DNA of 64,000 nt from Trueperaceae bacterium (GTDB taxonomy: Bacteria > Deinococcota > Deinococci > Deinococcales > Trueperaceae), in the NCBI GenBank assembly GCA_034521815.1, contig JAXHLW010000011.1, positions 24,312 through 88,311 of the forward strand, given 5' to 3'. The notes below the pieces were generated by a model that ran no database searches, had not been told where the DNA came from, and saw only the letters and a list, made by a program, of their open reading frames with translations. The position numbers and the translations under genes were made by a program. Below are positions 35,049 to 49,783 of this stretch, piece after piece. Each line of letters starts with the position of its first letter. Positions within the stretch are counted from its first letter, which is position 1.

Positions 35049-35247
35049 CCGTCGCTGGCCGTATCGGCTCGGAACGGGTTCTCTCCTGCGATGGCCGGTT
35101 GCGCTACTGGCTCCGCCTGCTCCAAGCGCCCAAGTACGGAACAGGCTTCATCGCCGCCATCGAACGACGTCCTGTGAAGCTACGCGGCCGTGCTGCTACG
35201 CAGCGCAGGGACGCGTCCACGCTACGCGCAGGGATCGCACGGGCTTC

Positions 35248-38773: not shown

Positions 38774-38966
38774 GTCGATTCTCGTAGTGTCCCACGCTCG
38801 GCCCACGCGAGGTTCGGCATCTGCGGGGATCGCCACCGTGCCTTGCAGCGCCGACCCGAAGCACCCGCGCATCGCGCGCCGGTAGCTTGTGCGACACGGG
38901 TGGTACGCTCACCGCCAACGAACCACGAACCACGAACGCAGCGCATTCGACCACCGGGGGTTGAAC

Positions 38967-41266
38967 GTGAACAGGGGTGTCCTGCATGCCGTCGTGACAA
39001 CAGACGGTCGCTGGTTGCAGGTTTCGCCAGCGTTGTCCAGGTTGTTGTGGGGGCCAGGCGGGACCGTGCGTTCCCGCTCGCTGTACGACGTGATCCACCC
39101 CCGAGTCCGTCGCGTCGATGCGGAGGGTCGTGTCGGGCGCGGGCACGTCGAACGACACCTTCGGGTGCCAGCTGGTGCTGCACGACGGGTCGACCGTGTG
39201 GACGTACGTGCGGCTCGCCCGCGTCCACGACACGGCGGACGAAGCGGCAGACGAAGCGGACGACGAAGCGGCGGGCCAGACGCCCGCAGGGCGGGCGCAC
39301 CTTACGTTCTCCTACCCTCTGCTGGCGTCCCGCCTGACGCCCGTCAGGTCCCCGGCGGACGACCGCTTTCGGGCGTTCTTCGAGAACAGCTTCGATGCCG
39401 CGTTCCTCACCGCTCCGGACGGGCGGATCCTCGAGGCGAACCCGGCGGCATCCGCCATGTTCGGCTACACGCTCGAGGAGCTACGCGCCAAGGGCAGATC
39501 GGCCGTCGTCGACACGAGCGATCCGCGCCTCGCCACGATGCTGCGCGAACGGGAGGCGACCGGCGCCACCCGCGGCCACCTGTCGATGCGCCGCAAGGAC
39601 GGGTCGCGCTTCGAAGCGGACCTAGCGAGCAGCGTCTACACGGCCCCAGCGGCGAGGCGCGCACCAGCATCATGGTGCGAGACCTGACCGAACAGATCGA
39701 AGCGGAACAGGCCGACCGCCGCGAGACGATCGAGCTGGCCCGGCGCATCGAAGCGCTGACGGTCCAGACCAGCTTCGCGTCCAGTCCAGCAGCGATCTAC
39801 CGAGCCCTGCTCGACTTCGCCATGGCCGTGTCGCCCGCCGAAGCGATGCTGATCACCGAACGAGGCGAGAACGGCGCGTCCCTCGTCGACGTCTACGCCG
39901 GCTGGAACATGGGCGGCGCCTCCTCCGAGGAAGCGCCGCCACGCATACAGTCCGCCGCGCACGATCCCGCGACGCTCGACGCCGTCCTCAGAGAAGGACG
40001 GAGCACGATCGTGGACGACCTTCTTGCCGGATCACGTCCGGGCTTCTCGCCGGTGCTCGGCCCTGCCAGCGTGGCGGAACGCTCCCGCTCGGCGGTGCTG
40101 CTGCCCATGGCGGTCCTCGGCAAGATCGAGGGCATGGTCGAGTTCCGGTCGTCGCGACCCGGCGCGTTCGCCCAGCACCACGTGGCCCCGCTACGCCTGG
40201 CGGCGACCCTCGCAGCGATCAGCGTGAACGACCTTCGGCACCACGAACGCGAGCGGCAGGCCCGAAAGCGGGCCGAAGCCGGCTGGCGGCACCTCCAGGA
40301 GATCGTCGACCAAGCCCCGGTGATGATGGCGACGGCAGGCGGACCGGAGCACGTCTTCACCAGCGCCAACCGGCTGTATATGGAGACGCTCGGACTCGAG
40401 GACATCGTCGGAAAGCGCGTCATCGACGTGCTTCCCGAGATCGAGGCGCAAGGCATCATCGACATCCTCGACCGCGTATACGACACCGGCGAGCCGTTCG
40501 TCGCGAACGGCATGCCGATGGACCTCGACGTTCAGGGAGAGGTCGACGCGGTTCTACTTCAACCTGGTCTACCAACCGATCCGCGACGGCGACGGCAAGG
40601 TCACCGGCATCCTGGCCAACGTGAACGACGTCACCAGCCTGTTCCGAGCCAACGAGAGGCTGCACGCCCTCAACGTCGAGCTACGCGAAGCGTACGACCA
40701 GACCATCCGAAGCTGGGCCCTGGCGCTGGACATCTGGGACGAGGACACCGCCGGCCACAGCCAACGCGTCACCGACCTCACCGTCCGCCTGGCCACCCGC
40801 CTCGGCATCCACGGCGACGACCTCGAGCACGTCCGCCGCGGCGCGCAGCTGCACGACATCGGCAAGATGGCGATCCCCGACCGGATCTTGTCGAAACCGG
40901 GCACGCTCACGCCGGACGAATGGGAGATCATGAAGACCCACACCACCCAGGGCGCACGGTTCCTGGAACCGATCGCCTACCTCCGGCCCGCCATCGACAT
41001 CCCCCGCCACCACCACGAACGCTGGGACGGCAGCGGCTACCCGGACGGCCTGGCCGGCGAGGCGATCCCCCTACCCGCCCGGATCTTCGCCGTCGTCGAC
41101 GTCTACGACGCGCTCACCAGCGACCGGCCGTACCGCGCGGCGTGGACGCACGAGCAGGCGATCGCGCACATCGAGGCCGGCACCGGCAGCCACTTCGACC
41201 CGCGGATCGCACCGGACTTTCGTCGAGATGATGGCGGACCGCGCCTCCCACGGTATGCGTCAGTAG
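38967..41266 (+). pseudogene. PAS-PAS-GAF-PAS-HD-GYP phosphodiesterase (about 765 aa) with four frame breaks (about 39125, 39640, 40545, 41218)
   Basis: Text runs through ORF 38889-41231 (VLHAVVTTDGRWLQVSPALSRLLWG..), then ORF 39118-39687 (..FRAFFENSFDAAFLTAPDGRILEANPAASAMFGYTLEELR..). It returns to the first frame (..IMVRDLTEQIEAEQ.., GAF, ..QEIVDQAPVMMATAGGPEHVFTSANRLY..), then ORF 40621-41613 (..FYFNLVYQPIRDGDGKVTGILANVNDVT..GHSQRV..QLHDIGKMAIPD..HHERWDGSGYPDGL..). It ends ..FVEMMADRASHGMRQ, TAG 41264-41266. GTG 38967 is preceded by GGGGG. Confidence 0.8.
39238..39273 (+). repeat. 12-bp tandem repeat x3 inside the PAS-HD-GYP gene
   Basis: gacgaagcggca / gacgaagcggac / gacgaagcggcg, encoding DEAADEADDEAA in an inter-domain linker. 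Confidence 0.7.
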
Positions 41267-42271
41267 GTCGGGAGTCCGGAGGCGTTCGCTTTGACGCCGA
41301 ACTCCTCGCGGAAGCGCCGCGTGATCTGGTGGAGCGCGTTCAGGCTCAGGGCGTCCCCGTACTCGCCGTCGCACGCCGCGAGCACCTGCTCGAGCTGCCC
41401 GACGTCGTTGATGCTCACCACCGTGCTGGCGACGTCGGGGCGTCAGCGAGAACCGCAGGGCCAGCTCGGTCCAGGACGTGTCCGGCTCGCCCAGCACGCG
41501 CTTCGCCTCCTCGAGCTGGTCGTAGGCGCGGTCCCATTCGGGCCCGTTCATGCGATCACCGGCGGGCAGCGCGGCGCGGTCGATCCGCTTGTCGGTCAGC
41601 AGGCCGCCCATGAGCGGCCGAATGCCGATGAAGCCCGCCCCGCGGCGTCGCAGCTCGGGGAACAGGTCCAGCATCTCCGTCTCGAGGAGATCGAAGTAGG
41701 CGACGACCCCTTCGAACAGGCCGGTCTCGAGGGCCGCGCGGGCGTACCCGACCGTGTAGGGAAACGTCGCGAGGTGGCCGATCTTGCCTTCGGACGTCAG
41801 CTCCTCGACGACTTCCCCGAGCGGCTCGACGATGCTCGGGAAGGTCGGCCAGCCGCTGCGGCTCGCCCGCCTCCTGGTAGGCCACGCGCGCGGTCCAGCG
41901 CTGCCACGCTGCAGGTGCTGCACCACGGCGATCCGCTCGGCGTGCAGGTCGCGCAGCGCATCCTCCACCTGGGCGCGAAACGCCGCCTTGTCGAAGCGCT
42001 CCTCTCCCCAGTCGGGAACGTTGACCTTGATGACGTGATGCACCTCGTCACGCTTGGGGTAGCGCGCCATGACCTCGCCGGTCGCCCAGCGGGTCCCGTA
42101 CTCGTAGCTCGAGTGGACGCAGTTCACGCCGCGCTCGAGCGCCTCCTCCAGCGCATGCATGCCGTTCAGGCTCTTCTCGTCGCGACCCGGCTCCTTCGCC
42201 GCGAAGCGCATCGTGCCGAAACAGACTTCCGACACGCGAAGGTCCGTGCTTCCGAACTGTCGGTACTTCAT
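41260..42271 (-). pseudogene. Aldo/keto reductase (about 336 aa) with three frame breaks (about 41925, 41845, 41437-41440)
   Basis: ATG 42271 with GAGGAGG upstream. MKYRQFGSTDLRVSEVCFGTMRF..GVNCVHSSYEYG..IAVVQHLQR; an out-of-phase middle WQRWTARVAYQEAGEPQRLADLP; back in phase ..SIVEPLGEVVEELTSEGKIGHLATF..GFIGIRPLMGGLL..ALRFSLTP. Then one base out of phase after a GGGG(+)/CCCC(sense) run: DVASTVVSINDVGQLEQVLAACDG..GLPTY, stop TGA 41260-41262. Confidence 0.8.
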
Positions 42272-42287
42272 GGTTCGCCTCCTCGTT

Positions 42288-43328
42288 TCACGTCCCGTCG
42301 TCGCTGCGCGCGGTGGCTCCGCGCGCCGGGACGGTCGACTGGCGCACTCGTTGACGACCGCGTGCGACCTTCTCACGGTACATGGCCCGGTCGGCGTGCT
42401 CGACGAGATCGTCGACGCTCGTCGCATCGTCGGGATACGTCGCCGACCCGACGCTGATGCCCAGCTCGATGTCGGGCGCCACGGCGAGGACGCGCCCCGT
42501 CGATCGCCGCTCGGATCCGGCTCGATCACGGTCGCGCTACCGTCGCGGCCCCGGAGGAGGACGCCGAACTCGTCACCACCGAGACGAGCCACGGTGTCGC
42601 CGTCCCGGACGGTGGCGAGAAGGCGGATGGCCACCTCCAGGAGAACCGCGTCGCCGACCGAATGACCGTACCTGTCGTTGACCGCCTTCATCCCGTCCAG
42701 ATCCGCCATGAGCACCTGACAGAACACGCCCTCGCGGTCGGACGCGATCCAGGACGAGAGGCGGTCACGGAAGAACGCCCGGTTCGCCAGGCCCGTCAGG
42801 TCGTCCCGCGTGGCGCGACGGAACAGCTCGTTGCCCTGTACGGCCGTGGCGTGGTGAAGCGCCGCGGCGATCAAGCCGGACATGAGCTCCAGCAACGCCA
42901 CGTCCTCCGAGGCGAAGGCGTCGGCACGGGCGGCATAGACCTTCAGGACCCCGACCGGGCTCTCGCTGTACAGTGAGCGGTACCACGACCATCGAGATAG
43001 CGCCCACCTTGCGGGCCGCGACCAGGTCGACCCGCGGATCGGTCGCCGCGTCGTCGCAGACCAGGGTGACGCCCTCGCGCACGCACCGCCCGGAGAGGCT
43101 GGTGGCGGCGTCGAGGCGCAGACCCAGGTGCGGCTCGGCCGTGCCGGCGACCGCCCGGTACACCATCTCATCGCCTTCGAGCAGCTCGACGGCAGCGCCG
43201 TCCGCCTCCGTCAGCGTCAACGCTCGCTTCGCCACGACGTCCATGACGCCGTCGAGATCCAGTCCCAGCCGAGCGATGCTCGTCTGCGTCTCGATCACGG
43301 CCAGAAGCTGATCGGTGGTCGGCTGCAT
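42288..43328 (-). pseudogene. GAF-GGDEF diguanylate cyclase (about 346 aa) with at least two frame breaks (about 42975 and 42500)
   Basis: ATG 43328 with GGAGGG upstream. MQPTTDQLLAVIETQTSIARLGLDLDGVMDVV..VAARKVGAISMVVVPL (ORF 42765-43394). Then ..SPVGVLKVYAARADAFASEDVALLEL..DDLTGLANRAFF..NDRYGHSVGDAVL..RDGDTVARLGGDEFGVLL (frame of ORF 41114-43171). Then ..ELGISVGSATYPDDATSVDDLVEHADRAMYREK (ORF 42288-42482). Confidence 0.8.
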
Positions 43329-43421
43329 GCGAAATCCCTCCGAACGTCGCGAGTCTACCCAGCGGCCATCGGGTACGCTCGTCGTCCTGTGCACGTCCAG
43401 CGGCCCGGTCTTCGTGGGCGG

Positions 43422-43736
43422 TCAGCCGACCAGCCTCAGCCCGACGATGCAGACGATGAGGCCCGCCAGCAGCGCGATCTTCACGAGCGACACCGCATCG
43501 GTGCCGGTCGCCATGCCGTACGCGACCGTGAGCGCTGCACCGACGCCGACCCAGACCGCGTACGAGGTGCCGGTCGGCAAGCTCCGCATCGCGTACGCCA
43601 AGCCCGCCATGCTCGCGCTCAACGCGACGAAGAAGACGACGCTCGGCCCCATGCGCGAGAAGCCCTCGGACCGTCCGAGCGCCGTCGCCCAGACGGCCTC
43701 CAAGACGCCGGACACCAGAAGCACGAACCATGCCAC
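43422..43736 (-). CDS. sugE: SMR-family small multidrug-resistance-type exporter, SugE/Gdx (guanidinium exporter)-like (104 aa)
   Basis: Tail of ORF 43422..45368(-) from GTG 43736. VAWFVLLVSGVLEAVWATALGRSEGFSRMGPSVV..AMRSLPTGTSYAVWVGVGAAL..LIVCIVGLRLVG aligns by eye with E. coli SugE (..[44 protein letters not shown]..). It lies 11 nt after the ATP-grasp stop. Confidence 0.85.
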   Translation of the reverse strand: MAWFVLLVSGVLEAVWATALGRSEGFSRMGPSVVFFVALSASMAGLAYAMRSLPTGTSYAVWVGVGAALTVAYGMATGTDAVSLVKIALLAGLIVCIVGLRLVG

Positions 43737-43747
43737 CTGACCGACCC

Positions 43748-45040
43748 TCAGCTCTCGGAGAACCGGAACGGCAACGCTTCCAGCACCCGCGCGTAGTTCG
43801 CCAGCAGCGTCTCCTCGTCGTCCGCCCCCAGCCATAGCTGCGCGACGGCGTAGCTGTAGCTGTCCTGCTCCGGTAGCTCGCTCAGGCGCATGCCTTCGCG
43901 CACCTGCACGGCGATGCGGGTACCGGGCACCAGCGCTTCGGCGGCTCGGGTCTCGGCCGGCGTGGGGCAGCGTTCGACCGTCGCGTCGCCGGTGAACACG
44001 CGATGGAAGAAGTTCGCCGACACCGCGTACTCGCCCTCGCGGTGCGGCATGGCGGGGCGCCGGCCCAGCCCCAGGTCCACGGTCACCTGCTGATGGCTCA
44101 GCCCGTCCACCTGCTCGAACAGGTCGCAGTGGTCCTTCGCGATGCGCGTGTTGATCTCCAGGAGCCAGACGTGATCCTGCACCTCGTCCCAGAAGAACTC
44201 GATGTTGAACGCCGCATCGTCGTAGCCGACGTGCGTCATCACGCGGCGCGCGAGCTCGCGCATGCGCGCCTGCACCGGCTCCGGCAGCCGGGACGGGTAG
44301 AGGTAGTGGAAGAAGCTCAACACGTGCGGGTAGCGGATGGAATCCACGATGCCGTAGGCGACGACCTCGCCGTCCTGCACGTACCCCTCCAGCGTGCACT
44401 GCCAGCCGCCGATCATCTGCTCGGCCATGCAGGCGTGCCCCGCCACCGCACGGATTTCGGCGGGAAGCTCGGCCTGGGCCAGCACGTGGTCGAACGGCTC
44501 GGCGATCGAACGGATCCCGGCGCGAAGGCGCTCGATCGCCACCGCGAAGTCCTCCGGGCTGTCGATGCGGAACCCGAGCCAGGAGCCCGACGATTTGACC
44601 GGCTTGACGAAGAACGGGAACGAGAGGCCAGCCGCGCCGATCCGGTCGAGGACGTCGTCGTCGAACGGGTCGAACCAGGTGAAGCCGGGGACGGCTTCTG
44701 GAATCACCTCGCGCTGGGCGAGACGGCTCCAGTACTTGTGCTGGCACTTCAGCAGCGCCTCGAGCCGCACCGAGCGGACGCCGAACCGCGGGCACAAGAA
44801 CGGCAGCATGGTCGAGACCGGGAAGTCCATATAGCCGATGATCGCGTCGACCGTTCCCGCCTCGCCGGCGATCCGCGCCTCGGCTTCCGCCAGCATCGCC
44901 TCGATGTCCCATTCGTCCGTGTCGTAGATGGCGGCGGGGTCGATGACGCCGTGGAAGGTCACGTCCTCGACCCCCCGCAGGCGTTTCAGGCGCTCGTGGT
45001 TGAGATCGTTGAGGCCGACGACGAACACGTTCTTGGGCAT
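43748..45040 (-). CDS. Uncharacterised ATP-grasp domain protein (430 aa)
   Basis: ORF 43748..45082(-), start at second ATG 45040 with GAGGAG upstream. MPKNVFVVGLNDLNHERLKRL..AIIGYMDFPVSTMLPFLC..LKCQHKYWSRL..FPFFVKPVKSSGSWLGFRI..MAEQMIGGWQCTLEGYV..FNIEFFWDEVQDHVWLLEINTRIAKDHCDLF. This is an ATP-grasp fold by motif pattern; I do not know an assigned function for this subfamily. Confidence 0.85.
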   Translation of the reverse strand: MPKNVFVVGLNDLNHERLKRLRGVEDVTFHGVIDPAAIYDTDEWDIEAMLAEAEARIAGEAGTVDAIIGYMDFPVSTMLPFLCPRFGVRSVRLEALLKCQHKYWSRLAQREVIPEAVPGFTWFDPFDDDVLDRIGAAGLSFPFFVKPVKSSGSWLGFRIDSPEDFAVAIERLRAGIRSIAEPFDHVLAQAELPAEIRAVAGHACMAEQMIGGWQCTLEGYVQDGEVVAYGIVDSIRYPHVLSFFHYLYPSRLPEPVQARMRELARRVMTHVGYDDAAFNIEFFWDEVQDHVWLLEINTRIAKDHCDLFEQVDGLSHQQVTVDLGLGRRPAMPHREGEYAVSANFFHRVFTGDATVERCPTPAETRAAEALVPGTRIAVQVREGMRLSELPEQDSYSYAVAQLWLGADDEETLLANYARVLEALPFRFSES

Positions 45041-45109
45041 GGCACGCTCCTCGGGTGGCGCGGCGCCGGTGGCCGGCGCCACCGGAAGGGTGCGGTCGAT
45101 ACCGGCCGC

Positions 45110-47732
45110 TCAGTCGGAGGTCGGGGCCTTCGTCCGGAAGGTGCGGCCCTTCAGCCGCGCGATCGTGCCGTCGATGTCGTCCACGAGAAGCAGGAGCAGA
45201 TCGCCGGGAGCCGCGGCGTCCATGGCGCGGCCGATGGCCGCGTACTCGTCCATGACGAACTCCACGCGGGCGCACCCGGCTCGGGAGGCGCCCCGCGCCA
45301 TCAGCTCGGCGGACTCGCCGACGCGCCGGCCGCGCGGGTCCGTCTCGCACACGAAGAGCTCGTCGCACATCGCGGCCAGATGCGCTCCCAACGCCTCCAA
45401 ATCCTCGTCCCGCCGGTTGCCCGGCGCGCTGGCCACACCGATGCAGCGTTCGACCGTCAAGCCCCGGACGAGCGGCTCGAGGGCCCTGATGGCGGGCACG
45501 TTATGCCCGTAATCGAGGAGACAGCGCACGCCGTCGGCCTCGATGAGGTTGGTGCGTCCGGGCAGCTGCGTGGGCGTGGGATGGAAGGTCTGCAGGCCCA
45601 TGCGGATGTCGCCCAGGGTGAGCCCCAGCGCGTGCCCGGCCGCCGCGGCGGCCATCGCGTTCTGGACGTTGAACGGGGCGTGGCCTTCGAACGCGATCGG
45701 TACGTCGTTCACGTCGACGATCTCCGCCTCGACGCGCCCCTGCCGCATCACGATCCGCCCAGAGGCCACGGTGAAGACGGTGCCGTGATCGGCGACATGA
45801 CGGGCCAGGACGTCGGCGTCCGGATCCAGCGAGAAGTAGACGATGCGGCCACGCGACCACGGGACGCCGTGCTCCATCACGCGTGGATCGTCCGCGTTGA
45901 GGACGCAGGTGCCCTCGGGCTTGACGGCGTCCACGACGACGGTCTTGCAGCGGGCGAGCTCGTCGAGCGTCTCGATGTCGCGCTCCCCCAGGTGATCGCT
46001 GTCGATGTTCAGCAGGACGCCGACGTCGCAGGCGTCGAAGCCGAGCCCCCGCCGCATGATCCCGCCCCGGGCGACCTCCAGGACGGCGTGATCGACGGTG
46101 GGCTCGCGCAGCACCACGCCGGCCGCCATCGGTCCCGAGTAGTCGCCGCGCATGACGATGTGATTGTCGATCTCGATGGTCCCCGTGCAGGCCAACCCCA
46201 CCTGGCGCCCCGCCTGGCGCAGCAGGTGCGCCAGCAGCCGCGACGTGGTGGTCTTGCCGTTGGTTCCGGTGATGGCGGTGATGGGGATGCGGCCGTCGTC
46301 CGCGGGGTCCGGGAAGAGCATGTCCACCACGGCCTCGCCCACCGGCCGGCCGGCGCCGTGCGTCGGCGCCATGTGCATGCGGAAGCCGGGACCGGCGTTG
46401 ACCTCCACCACCCCCGCCGACTGCGCCTCGAGCGGCTCTGCGAGCGTCTCGGCCAGCAGGTCGATGCCGATGATGTCCAGTCCGATCAGGCGCGCGATGC
46501 GTTCGGCGGCGTACACGACCTCGGGATGCACGTCGTCGGTGCGGTCGGTCGCGGTGCCGCCCGTGGACATGTTGGCGGTCGACTTGAGCCACACGACCTC
46601 GCCCTCGGGGATCACGTGGCCGAACGTCAGGCCCGCTTGGGCGACCAGGCGGGTCGTCTGCTCGTCGATGTGGATCTGCGTGAGCAGGTTCTCGTGTCCC
46701 ACGCCTCGGCGCGGGTCGGCGTTCTCTTGGTCGATCAGCTCCTGCAGGGTCGCGGCGCCGTCGCCCACCACGTGCGCCGGCCGTCGCCTGGCGGCGGCGA
46801 CCAGCTTCCCGTCGATCACCAGCAGCCGGTGGTCCTCGCCCCGGATGTAGCGCTCGACGACCACGGCGTCGTGACGCTGCCGGGCGGCCTCGAACCCTAC
46901 CGTGAGCGCCTCGGGCGTGCCGATGTCGGTCGAGACGCCACGCCCGTGGTTCCCGGAGAGCGGCTTGGTGACGACCGGATAGCCGATCGCCTCCGCCGCC
47001 GCCAGCGCCTCGGCCAGGTCGTAGCAGATGCGGCCCTCCGGCACGGGGATGCCGGCGTCCCGGAGGATCTGCTTCGTCCAATCCTTGTCGTCGGCGATGG
47101 AGGTCCCCAGGATGTTGGTGCGGTTGGTGACGGTCGCCTGGAAGCGCTGCTGCTTCGTGCCCTGACCGAGCTGGATGTAGCTGGTGTCGCTGGTCCAGTC
47201 GGTAGTGGGGAATGCCGCGTCGCTTGGCGGCGTCGACGATCGCGCCCGTCGACGGTCCCAGCATGTTGGCGTCGCGCACCGCCTTGAGGCGGTCGATGAC
47301 CGGCTCCAGGTCGACCACCGCGCCGTCGAACAGGGCCCGCACCAGCGCGACCGCCTCCTCCCCCGCGGCGAGCCCGCAGGCCTCGTCACGGTAGCGGTAG
47401 ACGACGTTGTAGACGTTCGGCTCGTAGCTGTCGACCGTCTTGCCGTAGCCGACGGAGAAGCCGATCATGTTCTGCAGCTCGATCGCCAGATGCTCGACGA
47501 CGTGACCCGCATACGTTCCCATCGCCACGCGCTGCAGGAAGCCGCCCGGCGTCCCGATCGAGCATCGGTGCTCGTAGATGCCGGGCATGAGCGCACGAAG
47601 GCGATCGGGCAAGCCCGGCACCATGTCGCTGGTGCGATCGTGCAGGTTCTCGATGTCCAGCCGCAGGTAGATCGCCGGATACCGGCTGTAATAGTTGGGA
47701 CCGCGCAGGGCGCGGTGCTCGAGGATCTTCAT
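45110..47732 (-). pseudogene. cphA: Cyanophycin synthetase (about 873 aa) with one frame break near 47192
   Basis: N-terminus MKILEHRALRGPNYYSRYPAIYLRLDI..AAKRRGIPHYRLD in ORF 45501-47783. The rest, SDTSYIQLGQGTKQQR..ATP-grasp..VEVNAGPGFRMH..ITGTNGKTTTSRL..(Mur-ligase-like)..DYGHN.., is in ORF 45110-47389, one base out of phase at a GG(+)/CC(sense) run. Length is 3n+1. An alternative ATG at 47783 would overlap cphB. Confidence 0.9.
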
Positions 47733-47745
47733 TCCTTCTTCGATA

Positions 47746-48591
47746 TCACGCCGGATCGTCTTCGTGAGGTACGGGCCACTCATCGTGTGCGTGAATGAAG
47801 GCGCGCCGCTTCACGTCGTAGCCATAGCCACTGGCGAGTGCGTGCATGATCACGTGCTCGACCGCGACCGGCTCGCCCACCTCGAGATCGACCACGTTCG
47901 TGTGGCGCAGCTGGCTGCTGTCCACGACGATCACCAGGCCCGGCCCGACCGCCTCGAGCACGGGGCCGGGATGGATCACCACGGCGGCGTCTTCCCCGAT
48001 GCCCACCCCGACGTACTCGGGGTTGGTGGTGCCCACCTCCATCAGCCGCGTGAAGCGGCCACGTTCCAGGAAGTGGCTGTCGATCACGATCCCGCGCGCG
48101 AAGGCCAGGCCCGCCGCCATCTTCACCGCGCCCTTGCGGAGCGCGTTGGCGGCGTCGCCGTCGTAGATCATGGTGGCCGTCAGCGCCGCAGCGCCCGCGC
48201 TGGTCCCGGCGACCACGGCGCCTGCGGCATGGCGTTCACGGATCGCCGTCAGGAACGGCGATCCGCCGAGAACGTTGGTGAGCCGCAGCTGATCGCCGCC
48301 ACTGATGAAGATCAAGCCGCACGCGTCGAGGATCGCCAGCTGCGCCGGGTCGTGGGCCGCCGCCCGGTCGGGCACGTCCAGGTGGTGCACGGCCCGTGCG
48401 CCGAACGCCTCGAAGGCGTGGAGGTAGGCGGAGAAGGCGTCGGCGGGATAGCGGCTGGCGGTGGTGATCACGCCGACATCGAACGGCTCTCCGGGCACGA
48501 GGTCGAGGACGCGCTTGAGCACGGCCGACTCGGTGGTCCGGTCCTCGGCGCCGCCGATGGCGATCAGGGCACCGCTCTTTGGAGGGGTCAT
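47746..48591 (-). CDS. cphB: Cyanophycinase (peptidase S51, 281 aa)
   Basis: Intact ORF. GALIAIGGAED..GLIFISGGDQLRL..VVAGTSAGAAALT (Ser nucleophile)..VIDSHFLERGRFTRL..GVGIGEDAAVV. Confidence 0.9.
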   Translation of the reverse strand: MTPPKSGALIAIGGAEDRTTESAVLKRVLDLVPGEPFDVGVITTASRYPADAFSAYLHAFEAFGARAVHHLDVPDRAAAHDPAQLAILDACGLIFISGGDQLRLTNVLGGSPFLTAIRERHAAGAVVAGTSAGAAALTATMIYDGDAANALRKGAVKMAAGLAFARGIVIDSHFLERGRFTRLMEVGTTNPEYVGVGIGEDAAVVIHPGPVLEAVGPGLVIVVDSSQLRHTNVVDLEVGEPVAVEHVIMHALASGYGYDVKRRAFIHAHDEWPVPHEDDPA

Positions 48592-48672: not shown

Positions 48673-49507
48673 TCATTCGATGACGCGGTGGAGAAAGCCG
48701 TCCTTCCCTTTCCGCTTCACCTCGTACATGAGCTCGTCGGCCTGCACGATCGCCGCGGACGGATCGTCAGGAGGGCTTGCGAAGGTGAGGACCCCGACGC
48801 TGAAGGTGACGGGATAGCCTTCGTCTCGCGTCGCGCTCCGCAGCGCCTCCGACAGACGTTCGATCGTGGCGCGTGCGTTTTCCGGCCCGGTTTCGGGCAG
48901 CAGGAGCATGAACTCGTCGCCGCCTAGGCGACCAGCGAGATCGACGTCCCGCACGTGCTCCTGAAGCGTGCGTGCGATGCGCTGCAGCAGCCGGTCGCCG
49001 GCCTGGTGGCCGTACGTGTCGTTCACCGCTTTGAAGTCGTCGATGTCGATGTACCCGATCGTGAGGGGGTGGACGTAGCGTTGCGCCCTCTCTACCTCCC
49101 GCACCAGGTTCTCGAGGAACCAACCGCGGTTGGCGAGTCCGGTGAGATTGTCGGCTGCGGCTATGCACCTCGGCAAGGGCGAGCTGGGTGCGAAGCTCCC
49201 CGACCAGCCAGGCGACCAGTGCGAGCGTGGAGAGGCGCATGACGAGGTTCCAGGCCGGGAGGAGTTCGGAGCTCGACTTGGGAAGGTACGGGACGTGGGC
49301 GACCGTCCAGATGACCGCACCGATCGCGGCCAGCGTCATGCCCGCGGTCCGCGGGCCGCGCCAGCTGGCGATCAGCACCGGCAGGACGTAGAAGCTGGAG
49401 TAGGCCAGGTCCGGATCGGTGACGAGATCGATGAACCCGACCGCTGCCACGATCACGACCGCAGCGCCGACGACCAGCCACGCCGGAGCGTTCGCGATGG
49501 ACGTCAT
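48673..49507 (-). pseudogene. Membrane-anchored GGDEF diguanylate cyclase (about 278 aa) with one frame break near 49160
   Basis: MTSIANAPAWLVVGAAVVIVAAVGFIDLVTDPDLAYSSFYVLPVLIASW..LVGELRTQLALAEVH (frame of ORF 48767-49747). Then ..AAADNLTGLANRGWF..NDTYGHQAGDRLL..RDVDLAGRLGGDEFMLLL..ADELMYEVKRKGKDG (ORF 48673-49320). Length is 3n+1. Confidence 0.82.
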
Positions 49508-49783
49508 GACTCGACGGCTCAGAACGTGCGACTCCAGCTGTCCGGCCAGCGCTCGATGCCGATGTTGCCGGCGTCGGCGCGATACCGGAAGGCGCGTACC
49601 GGAGGCGCGGGCCACGGAGGCGACCTCGATCAGCACCTGTCCCGTCCGACCCGTGGCTCGGGCACCTCGCCCAGCTCGACGTGCCCCGGTCCTCCTGCGA
49701 CGTTCATGACGGCCTGCACATTGAGCCACCTCTCGATCGTCCGTCACGATAGCGCAGCCGCTGGCCGCCGCCCTGTCCTCGGC

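What the first reader, a model, noticed from the sequence alone, without database searches (positions are those of the whole stretch)
43422..48591. Cyanophycinase - cyanophycin synthetase - orphan ATP-grasp ligase - SugE/Gdx exporter arranged as one tight operon
Four same-strand genes are separated by only 13, 69 and 11 nt: cphB 48591-47746, cphA 47732-45110, ATP-grasp 45040-43748, sugE-like 43736-43422.

To my knowledge, described cyanophycin loci pair cphA with cphB/cphE and sometimes an isoaspartyl dipeptidase. I do not know of a described role for a separate 430-aa ATP-grasp enzyme of this type (N-terminal PKNVFVVGLNDLN.. Rossmann-like part, FFVKPVKSSGS, LLEINTRIAKDH). It is intact, while cphA itself carries a frame break.

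ATP-grasp enzymes ligate carboxylates to amines, which is the chemistry of Asp backbone and beta-Asp-Arg bond formation. SugE/Gdx proteins export guanidinium, and cyanophycin is the most guanidino-rich polymer a cell makes. Possible roles for the ligase are primer or dipeptide (re)ligation, side-chain tailoring (for example an alternative amino acid), or a salvage step. The exporter may deal with a guanidino by-product. All of this is inference from adjacency.
Basis: partly seen in the sequence, partly recalled or inferred. Interest (0 to 1): 0.7.

Follow-up and report, generated by a model that had tools for sequence, protein, structure and literature searches.

The report
Extra ligase in halophile cyanophycin loci
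A cyanophycin (nitrogen-storage polymer) gene cluster from a salt-loving Trueperaceae bacterium carries an extra, uncharacterised ATP-dependent ligase that sits beside cyanophycin genes in salt-loving bacteria of three phyla, which points to an undescribed step in cyanophycin metabolism, whereas the neighbouring guanidinium exporter is a chance passenger.

Summary
The four genes are at the stated coordinates with the stated gaps of 13, 69 and 11 nt: cyanophycinase, cyanophycin synthetase CphA1, a 430-aa ATP-grasp protein and a Gdx/SugE-type transporter.

- **cphA frame break:** it is one extra G at 47195/47196. Removing it restores an 873-aa CphA1, the length found in relatives. Neighbouring genes are also frame-broken, so this is most likely an assembly error.
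- **ATP-grasp linkage to cph:** the ATP-grasp belongs to a tight family, at least 63% identical across halophiles of Deinococcota, Thermodesulfobacteriota and Pseudomonadota. In 40 of 80 species-level loci, cphA lies within 10 kb, in at least six different gene arrangements.
- **Hydrolase partner:** in 57 of the 80 loci a CocE/NonD (S15) serine hydrolase directly follows the ATP-grasp. At most two loci have neither partner. In more distant saline and marine relatives only the ligase-hydrolase pair recurs, and natural fusions of the two exist.
- **Fold:** the predicted fold is closest to L-amino-acid ligases. It is not a CphA paralogue.
- **sugE:** it is absent from all 160 related loci in the two census sets.

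The searchable papers do not mention this ligase.

The parts
47746..48591 (-). cphB, cyanophycinase (281 aa, Peptidase_S51)
   Evidence: It matches TIGR02069 at 214.7 bits against a cut-off of 126.6, and PF03575. Its orthologue lies directly upstream of cphA in most linked loci.
45110..47732 (-). cphA, cyanophycin synthetase 1. It is read in two frames because of one extra G at 47195/47196. The repaired length is 873 aa.
   Evidence: The N part matches PF18921 and TIGR02068 positions 1-182. The C part matches TIGR02068 positions 179-859 at 881.7 bits, with Mur_ligase_M and Mur_ligase_C domains. The insertion is located by DNA alignment with four relatives. The Cx19HxxEH N-domain motif is present.
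47195..47196 (-). Site of the single-base insertion (GG where relatives have one base) that breaks the cphA reading frame
   Evidence: locate it. Neighbouring genes show similar breaks, so it is probably an assembly indel.
43748..45040 (-). Uncharacterised ATP-grasp ligase (430 aa), with an L-amino-acid-ligase-like fold. It belongs to a halophile-restricted clade linked to cph genes and/or a CocE/NonD hydrolase.
   Evidence: Pfam gives only PF13535 ATP-grasp_4. It is 100% identical to a protein from a Trueperaceae MAG, and homologues are 63-87% identical across three phyla. The AF2 model has pLDDT 80.6 and its best Foldseek matches are RizA, BacD and BL00235. K146, E281, E295, N297 and R299 are conserved across 106 family representatives.
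43422..43736 (-). Gdx/SugE-type SMR transporter (104 aa). It is probably co-transcribed here, but it is not a conserved part of the system.
   Evidence: It matches PF00893 at 70.7 bits and NF008512 SugE at 92 bits, below the cut-off of 126. The best solved relative is Gdx-Clo, E 2.9e-17. It is absent from all 160 related loci in the two census sets. No riboswitch was found.

Best explanation
This is a cyanophycin make-and-break locus (cphB-cphA) of a halophilic Trueperaceae bacterium that carries an accessory enzyme, a stand-alone ATP-grasp ligase with an L-amino-acid-ligase-like fold.

**Shown**
- The ligase belongs to a tightly conserved family that travels with cyanophycin genes in halophiles of three phyla.
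- Its ancestral partner is a cytoplasmic CocE/NonD (S15) serine hydrolase.
- The two are sometimes fused into one polypeptide.

**Inferred**
- The ligase uses ATP to activate a carboxylate as an acyl-phosphate and joins it to an amino group. The product is a small peptide or amide.
- The substrates are probably the cyanophycin building blocks or breakdown products: Asp, Arg or beta-Asp-Arg.
- The S15 hydrolase, where present, breaks that bond again.
- The ligase-hydrolase pair would therefore be a second make-and-break couple attached to the CphA/CphB couple. It would shuttle nitrogen between the insoluble polymer and a soluble small product.

In this window the hydrolase partner is missing and the ligase follows cphA directly. 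The cphA frame break is most likely a sequencing or assembly indel, so the locus is probably functional. The Gdx/SugE gene is a lineage-specific passenger in a variable slot.
For: **Gene identities and the frame break**
- The frame break is one extra G, the repaired CphA is 873 aa as in relatives, and neighbouring genes are broken too.

**Linkage with cph genes**
- In 40 of 80 species-level loci cphA lies within 10 kb of the ATP-grasp. In 38 of these it is directly upstream on the same strand, with a median gap of 88 nt between the aligned segments.
- The arrangements differ between lineages:
  - cphB-cphA-ATPg in Trueperaceae and Desulfobacteraceae.
  - cphA-ATPg without cphB in Desulfovermiculus.
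  - iaaA divergent from cphB-cphA-ATPg-S15 in Rhodobacteraceae, including Roseivivax halodurans.
  - iaaA-ATPg-S15 convergent with cphB-cphA in Fodinicurvata.
  - iadA-cphA-cphB divergent from ATPg-S15 in Billgrantia.
  - cphB-cphA-iadA-(degenerate ATPg)-S15-M20 convergent with an EctC::ATPg fusion, for a homologue only 46% identical.
- Several Halomonas and Aidingimonas species whose ATPg-S15-MFS locus is unlinked still encode CphA1 elsewhere in the genome.

**Hydrolase partner**
- S15 directly follows the ATP-grasp in 57 of 80 genome loci and in 68 of 80 saline or marine metagenome loci. It is the only other recurrent neighbour.
- Natural ATPg::S15 fusions exist: P0263 (1115 aa) and 1138-aa open frames in L090, L092 and L093.
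- In the Halomonas example the S15 protein has a GISWG nucleophile motif and no signal peptide. It matches TIGR00976 CocE/NonD at 232-248 bits.

**Fold**
- The best Foldseek matches are the L-amino-acid ligases RizA, BacD/YwfE and BL00235, at E 4e-20 to 6e-18.
- ATP-grasp catalytic residues are conserved.
Against: - The substrates are not known. Nothing in the sequence assigns Asp, Arg or beta-Asp-Arg.
- Biotin carboxylases, PurK and PurT score almost as well as the L-amino-acid ligases in the fold search, and TM-scores are only about 0.6.
- In the wider family (41-49% identical for most members), 0 of 80 metagenome loci carry cph genes nearby. Thirty-six of 80 close-clade loci lack them within 10 kb. 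No Halomonas elongata CphA1 appeared among the 120 best CphA hits. The pair can therefore probably work without an adjacent cyanophycin system, and perhaps without any.
- CphA and ATP-grasp identities to the window co-vary between lineages. Part of the linkage may therefore reflect co-transfer of one cassette rather than many independent events.
- This window has no S15 gene in 64 kb.
Confidence: 0.5

Rival explanations
1. The adjacency is hitch-hiking. The ATP-grasp/S15 pair would make and break a small peptide or amide unrelated to cyanophycin, for example a salt-stress solute. It would sit beside cph genes only because both lie on a cassette that spreads among halophiles.
For: - The pair alone recurs in 68 of 80 saline or marine metagenome loci, with no cph genes and no other conserved neighbour.
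- Halomonas has ATPg-S15-MFS away from cph.
- The family is restricted to halophile and marine taxa.
- An EctC (ectoine synthase) domain is fused to one homologue, and ectB/ectC-like genes follow S15 in L022.
- CphA and ATP-grasp identities co-vary, consistent with block transfer.
Against: - At least six different arrangements keep the genes together. These include operons that mix iaaA or iadA with ATPg and S15.
- When S15 is absent, cphA is always the neighbour, and in the 80 loci the ligase almost never stands alone.
Confidence: 0.25
2. The ligase tailors the polymer. It would add an amino acid or amine to free carboxylates of cyanophycin (the Arg alpha-carboxylates or the chain end), changing solubility at high salt. 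The S15 hydrolase would remove the decoration.
For: - The ligase lies directly downstream of cphA on the same strand in 38 loci.
- In Trueperaceae and the Desulfobacteraceae/Desulfovermiculus lineages the ligase keeps cphA as its only conserved partner.
- S15-family enzymes typically act on N-terminal aminoacyl or dipeptidyl groups. This rests on established knowledge of PepX and alpha-amino-acid ester hydrolases; the nearest solved relatives are listed.
Against: - The pair occurs widely without cph genes nearby.
- The best structural relatives are free-amino-acid ligases rather than polymer-modifying enzymes such as RimK or the CphA G domain.
Confidence: 0.12
3. The ligase makes primers. It would build the first (beta-Asp-Arg)-Asp or (beta-Asp-Arg)2 primer that CphA1 needs to start a chain.
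For: - The chemistry fits an ATP-grasp enzyme.
- The gene lies immediately after cphA.
- The minimal primer and the primer problem are described in PMC9262961.
Against: - All 40 linked CphA1 proteins, and the window's own, carry the complete Cx19HxxEH N-domain motif. That motif makes CphA1 primer-independent.
- The ligase family is mostly found without adjacent cphA in its wider distribution.
- A hydrolase partner is hard to explain under this model.
Confidence: 0.06
4. The Gdx/SugE transporter would be a functional component that exports a guanidino by-product of cyanophycin or ligase chemistry.
For: - There are only 11 nt between the ATP-grasp stop codon and the sugE start codon, on the same strand.
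- The protein is Gdx-like, with Gdx-Clo as best solved relative and the E13, W16, S42, Y59 and W62 positions conserved.
Against: - sugE is absent from 0 of 80 genome loci and 0 of 80 metagenome loci, including relatives that are 75-87% identical.
- The same slot holds a DinB_2 gene in L004.
- No guanidine riboswitch is present.
- No step of known cyanophycin metabolism releases free guanidine (established pathway knowledge).
Confidence: 0.04

Closest known systems
Cyanophycin gene clusters: cphA1-cphB with iaaA or iadA (Sharon and Schmeing, Sci Rep 2023, PMC10206079)
   Same: - cphB and cphA1 are adjacent and co-oriented.
- Related loci carry iaaA or iadA.
- The Roseivivax halodurans cluster studied in that paper corresponds to locus L061 of this census.
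   Different: The clusters here carry an additional ATP-grasp ligase, and usually a CocE/NonD hydrolase as well. That paper searched only for known genes and never mentions these two.
L-amino-acid ligases (RizA 4wd3, BacD/YwfE 3vmm, BL00235 3vot)
   Same: - They share the three-domain ATP-grasp architecture of about 400-470 aa.
- They are the best structural matches.
- The ATP-grasp motif E-x-N-x-R (E295, N297, R299) is conserved.
   Different: - Identity is only about 16%.
- A profile search of solved structures finds 3vot at only E 0.3.
- The genomic context differs: known ligases of this type sit in antibiotic pathways, whereas this one sits with a storage-polymer locus and a hydrolase.
- The substrates are unknown.
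Glutathionylspermidine synthetase/amidase (bifunctional ATP-grasp ligase plus amidase)
   Same: It is a ligase and a hydrolase for the same bond, encoded together or fused. That is the logic suggested by the ATPg::S15 fusions. This comparison rests on my own knowledge of that enzyme.
   Different: - The families are unrelated: its amidase is of the CHAP type, not S15.
- No sequence or structural match was seen here.
CphA1 G domain and CphA2
   Same: They perform ATP-grasp chemistry on Asp/Arg-derived substrates within cyanophycin metabolism.
   Different: - BLASTP against the window's own CphA gives E 1.9.
- The ligase has no Cyanophycin_syn N domain and no Mur-ligase M domain.
- No CphA structure appears among the 50 best fold matches.
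Gdx/SugE guanidinium exporters (Gdx-Clo, 6wk5/6wk8)
   Same: The alignment spans all 102 residues at E 2.9e-17, and the key positions are conserved.
   Different: - There is no guanidine riboswitch.
- The score is below NCBIfam's SugE cut-off, 92 against 126 bits.
- It is not conserved with the cluster.

Membership tests
Cyanophycin synthetase 1 (CphA1) | N domain plus ATP-grasp G domain plus Mur-ligase M domain, with a full-length match to TIGR02068 | tested here: met
   PF18921, the ATP-grasp families, Mur_ligase_M and Mur_ligase_C all match. The two frame pieces cover model positions 1-182 and 179-859. The C piece alone scores 881.7 bits against a cut-off of 850.
Cyanophycin synthetase 1 (CphA1) | Uninterrupted reading frame | tested here: not met
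   There is one extra G at 47195/47196 relative to four relatives. It is probably an assembly indel, because neighbouring genes are also frame-split.
Cyanophycin synthetase 1 (CphA1) | Cx19HxxEH primer-generating site in the N domain (a feature of primer-independent enzymes, PMC9262961) | tested here: met
   The window has CSIGTPGGFLQRVAMGTYAGHVVEH, and all linked CphA1 proteins carry the motif.
Cyanophycinase (CphB, S51) | Match to TIGR02069 above its cut-off | tested here: met
   214.7 bits against 126.6, covering model positions 1-248 of 250.
L-amino-acid ligase | Three-domain ATP-grasp fold with conserved ATP and Mg residues | tested here: met
   The AF2 model has pLDDT 80.6. The best Foldseek matches are RizA, BacD and BL00235. 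K146, E281, E295, N297 and R299 are conserved in at least 93% of 106 representatives.
L-amino-acid ligase | Sequence-level relationship to characterised ligases of this type | tested here: not met
   A profile search of PDB sequences finds 3vot at only E 0.3. The best match of any kind is a biotin carboxylase at E 7.6e-5, over part of the protein.
L-amino-acid ligase | ATP-dependent ligation of unprotected amino acids | not testable with these tools
   This needs an enzyme assay.
CphA G/M-domain paralogue | Detectable homology to CphA beyond the generic ATP-grasp fold | tested here: not met
   BLASTP against the window's CphA gives E 1.9. The Pfam matches differ (ATP-grasp_4 against RimK and ATP-grasp_5).
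Biotin carboxylase (the name some databases give the homologues) | Full-length match to biotin carboxylase models | tested here: not met
   Only the C-terminal ATP-grasp part matches, at 17-34 bits against cut-offs of 597-1304.
ATP-grasp + CocE/NonD two-gene module (defined here) | S15 hydrolase gene directly downstream of the ATP-grasp gene | tested here: not met
   There is no S15 homologue anywhere in the 64-kb window. The same is true of the other Trueperaceae, Desulfobacteraceae and Desulfovermiculus loci.
ATP-grasp + CocE/NonD two-gene module (defined here) | Orthology of the ATP-grasp to the module's ligase | tested here: met
   It is 63-87% identical over its full length to module ligases in 80 genomes, and 41-49% identical to most of the wider family.
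Gdx/SugE guanidinium exporter | SMR fold, closer to Gdx than to EmrE/Qac, with the substrate-site residues | tested here: met
   PF00893 scores 70.7 bits. Gdx-Clo scores E 2.9e-17 against EmrE at 3.6e-9, and E13, W16, S42, Y59 and W62 align. The residue list is from my own knowledge of the Gdx literature.
Gdx/SugE guanidinium exporter | NCBIfam SugE equivalog cut-off | tested here: not met
   92 bits against a cut-off of 126.

The most novel reading that the evidence does not exclude
The ATP-grasp ligase and its CocE/NonD hydrolase are an unrecognised make-and-break pair for a soluble, zwitterionic Asp/Arg-derived dipeptide, for example free beta-Asp-Arg or a close relative. Halophiles would use this dipeptide as a nitrogen-rich osmotically active solute, with cyanophycin as its osmotically silent polymer reserve. 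CphA/CphB and the ligase/hydrolase pair would then together form an osmotic buffer that moves amino acids between granule and solute as salinity changes.
Probability: 0.1. Interest if true: 0.85.

Novelty: new variant of a known kind. Interest (0 to 1): 0.62.

Why it matters
Cyanophycin metabolism is thought to be covered by CphA1/CphA2, the cyanophycinases and the isoaspartyl or CphZ dipeptidases. This work points to a conserved extra ATP-consuming ligase, usually with its own hydrolase, embedded in cyanophycin loci of halophiles from three phyla. One of those loci is a cluster whose dipeptidase has already been crystallised. That implies a further reaction around the polymer or its building blocks that nobody has assayed.

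The question is directly testable with two small soluble enzymes and cultivable hosts such as Roseivivax, Palleronia, Fodinicurvata and Halomonas. The answer could reveal a new peptide product or a modified cyanophycin, which is relevant to cyanophycin bioproduction. It could also link nitrogen storage to salt adaptation.

The ligase-hydrolase pair is also a widespread orphan module in saline and marine metagenomes.

Tried and rejected
**Negative searches**
- Rfam found nothing between 42500 and 50000, so there is no riboswitch or other RNA element in or around the cluster. The only match in the whole window is a c-di-GMP-II riboswitch far away.
- The promoter and terminator scan and folding of the intergenic regions showed nothing above chance.
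- Sequence searches of solved structures with the family profile gave no informative relative.
- Six paper searches, plus term searches inside the two main cyanophycin bioinformatics papers, found no prior description of an ATP-grasp or S15 gene in cph clusters.

**Methods that failed**
- A first unbiased ORF clustering on the high-GC genome loci failed because stop-to-stop ORFs merged genes. I replaced it with targeted tblastn and with a clustering on the lower-GC metagenome loci.
- The look-up of the window's own protein in the contig index found nothing, so the source assembly could not be inspected further.

**Ideas rejected or weakened**
- Rejected: the ATP-grasp as a CphA paralogue.
- Rejected: the ATP-grasp as a biotin carboxylase.
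- Weakened: a primer-synthesis role.
- Rejected as a conserved feature: a functional sugE link.
- Judged unlikely: cphA as a true pseudogene.

**Not settled**
- Whether Halomonas elongata lacks cphA. It was merely not seen among the 120 best CphA hits.


Full report
**1. Observation**

The window is about 70% G+C. Its ATP-grasp protein is 100% identical to a protein annotated from a Trueperaceae (Deinococcota) metagenome-assembled genome. The gaps of 13, 69 and 11 nt were read directly from the sequence.

| Gene | Coordinates | Identity |
|---|---|---|
| cphB | 47746-48591 | Cyanophycinase; TIGR02069 at 214.7 bits (cut-off 126.6) |
| cphA | 45110-47732 | CphA1; Cyanophycin_syn N domain, ATP-grasp G domain, Mur-ligase M domain |
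| ATP-grasp | 43748-45040 | Only generic ATP-grasp models match (PF13535, 41.9 bits) |
| sugE-like | 43422-43736 | SMR protein; best solved relative is Gdx-Clo (E 2.9e-17), against EmrE at 3.6e-9 |

The two frame pieces of cphA match TIGR02068 positions 1-182 and 179-859.

**2. The cphA frame break**

- DNA alignment with four relatives shows one extra G at 47195/47196.
- Skipping it joins 179 and 694 codons into an 873-aa protein, the CphA length in relatives.
- The genes on both sides of the cluster are also split between frames inside single Pfam domains: GAF, GGDEF, and DUF4118 with GGDEF.
- The assembly therefore carries frequent indels, and the cphA break is most likely an artefact. The contrast 'ligase intact, synthetase broken' should not be read biologically.

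**3. The ATP-grasp family**

- The protein search returned more than 2000 relatives. The best 120 are full-length proteins of 430-449 aa and 64-100% identical. The named ones come from Trueperaceae, Fodinicurvata, Desulfovermiculus, Palleronia, Aidingimonas, Modicisalibacter and many Halomonas species, nearly all halophiles.
- A scan of one genome per species found relatives in 337 species. The best 80 loci were fetched.
- The representative library holds 515 clusters at E below 1e-30, declining smoothly to about 30% identity.
- No curated family model and no solved structure is close by sequence.
- An AlphaFold model (pLDDT 80.6) is most similar to the L-amino-acid ligases RizA, BacD/YwfE and BL00235. 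Biotin carboxylases, PurK and PurT follow closely.
- The ATP-grasp residues K146, E281, E295, N297 and R299 are conserved in at least 93% of 106 representatives.
- The protein is not a CphA paralogue: BLASTP against the window's CphA gives E 1.9.

**4. Neighbourhood census, close clade (80 genome loci)**

| Context | Loci |
|---|---|
| cphA directly upstream, same strand (median gap 88 nt between aligned segments) | 38 |
| cphA divergent | 1 |
| cphA convergent | 1 |
| No cph gene within 10 kb (adequate flank) | 36, of which 35 have the S15 hydrolase |
| Neither cphA nor S15 | At most 2, one of them with a short flank |

A gene for a hydrolase of about 675 aa with Peptidase_S15 and PepX_C domains directly follows the ATP-grasp in 57 loci. 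It matches TIGR00976 CocE/NonD at 232-248 bits, and its nearest solved relative is cocaine esterase. When S15 is absent, cphA is always present.

Annotated examples show different architectures:

| Lineage | Arrangement |
|---|---|
| Trueperaceae | cphB-cphA-ATPg, followed by DinB where this window has sugE |
| Palleronia | cphB-cphA-ATPg-S15 |
| Many Rhodobacteraceae, including Roseivivax halodurans | The same, with iaaA divergent from cphB |
| Desulfovermiculus | cphA-ATPg, without cphB |
| Fodinicurvata | iaaA-ATPg-S15, convergent with cphB-cphA |
| Billgrantia | iadA-cphA-cphB, divergent from ATPg-S15 |
| Halomonas | ATPg-S15-MFS, away from cph |

Several Halomonas and Aidingimonas species with the unlinked arrangement encode CphA1 on other contigs.

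**5. Neighbourhood census, wider family**

- A metagenome scan seeded with distant members gave 80 loci from saline and marine samples. Most of their ATP-grasp genes are 41-49% identical to the window's.
- S15 follows the ligase in 68 of the 80. Six of the 12 exceptions are contigs that end too soon after the ligase to tell.
- No cph, iaaA, iadA, ectC or sugE gene is present in any of them.
- Unbiased clustering found no other recurrent neighbour.
- Ligase and hydrolase are fused in P0263 (1115 aa) and are read as one 1138-aa open frame in L090, L092 and L093.
- The ancestral unit is therefore the ligase-hydrolase pair. Attachment to cyanophycin genes characterises the halophile clade.
- The cph link is not exclusive to that clade. 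A homologue only 46% identical lies next to cphB-cphA-iadA-(degenerate ligase copy)-S15-M20. That homologue is itself fused to an ectoine-synthase-like domain.

**6. What it most likely does**

*Shown:* the linkage, the hydrolase partnership including fusions, the ligase-type fold, and the cytoplasmic nature of the hydrolase in the Halomonas example (GISWG motif, no signal peptide).

*Inferred:* the ligase forms an amide bond in a small product. The product is probably built from cyanophycin building blocks or breakdown products, because isoaspartyl dipeptidase genes share operons with the ligase. The hydrolase reverses the reaction.

The primer-synthesis idea is weakened. Every linked CphA1 carries the Cx19HxxEH motif that confers primer independence. 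Hitch-hiking on a mobile halophile cassette remains a serious rival, because CphA and ligase identities co-vary between lineages and the wider family lacks adjacent cph genes.

**7. sugE**

The protein is a good Gdx-type transporter and is probably co-transcribed here. It is absent from all 160 related loci in the two census sets. It occupies a slot that holds a different gene in the syntenic relative. No guanidine riboswitch is present. It is best treated as a passenger.

**8. Comparison with what is known, and novelty**

- The cphB-cphA core is ordinary.
- The published survey of cyanophycin clusters searched only for known genes and does not mention an ATP-grasp or S15 gene. One cluster it characterised (Roseivivax halodurans) contains both.
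- Other searches of the paper library found nothing either. The library does not hold most subscription-journal papers, so an earlier description cannot be excluded.
- I classify the finding as a new variant of a known kind of system: a cyanophycin locus with an accessory ligase, usually accompanied by a hydrolase, whose product is unknown.

**9. Verdict**

- Interest is 0.62. The conservation pattern is strong and the question is readily testable, but the chemistry is still open.

Noticed in passing
window 35084-35167 (-): A c-di-GMP-II riboswitch aptamer scores 77.4 bits against a gathering score of 53.5. It is the only Rfam match in the window.
   Followed up: no
window 38889-43394 and 48673-49747: The cph cluster is flanked on both sides by c-di-GMP signalling genes: DUF4118-GGDEF upstream, and GAF-GGDEF and PAS/GAF-HD-GYP downstream. 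Several are split between reading frames inside single domains, which indicates frequent indels in the assembly. The syntenic Trueperaceae locus L004 also has a GAF-GGDEF-EAL gene downstream.
   Followed up: partly
L169 7166-8851 (+), and L169 12236-13320 (-): A 561-aa gene fuses an ectoine-synthase (EctC) domain to an ATP-grasp homologue. It is convergent with cphB-cphA-iadA-(internally deleted second ATP-grasp copy)-S15-M20. This hints at a link between this ligase family and ectoine-type solute chemistry.
   Followed up: partly
L170 328-3675; L090 9904-13317 (also L092, L093): Natural fusions of the ATP-grasp ligase and the CocE/NonD S15 hydrolase into one protein of about 1115-1138 aa.
   Followed up: partly
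L114 6892-9541; L156 2686-5266; L078 10001-11281 and 16317-17585; protein P0241 (881 aa): Tandem or nearby duplicate copies of the ATP-grasp gene occur, and one protein is made of two fused copies.
   Followed up: no
L022 11738-13290: In Dichotomicrobium, ectB-like and ectC-like genes lie directly downstream of cphB-cphA-ATPg-S15.
   Followed up: no
L001 11445-12800 and most Halomonas loci: An MFS transporter with ATG22-like Pfam matches follows ATPg-S15 in Halomonas. It has no NCBIfam match. It could export or import the ligase's product.
   Followed up: no
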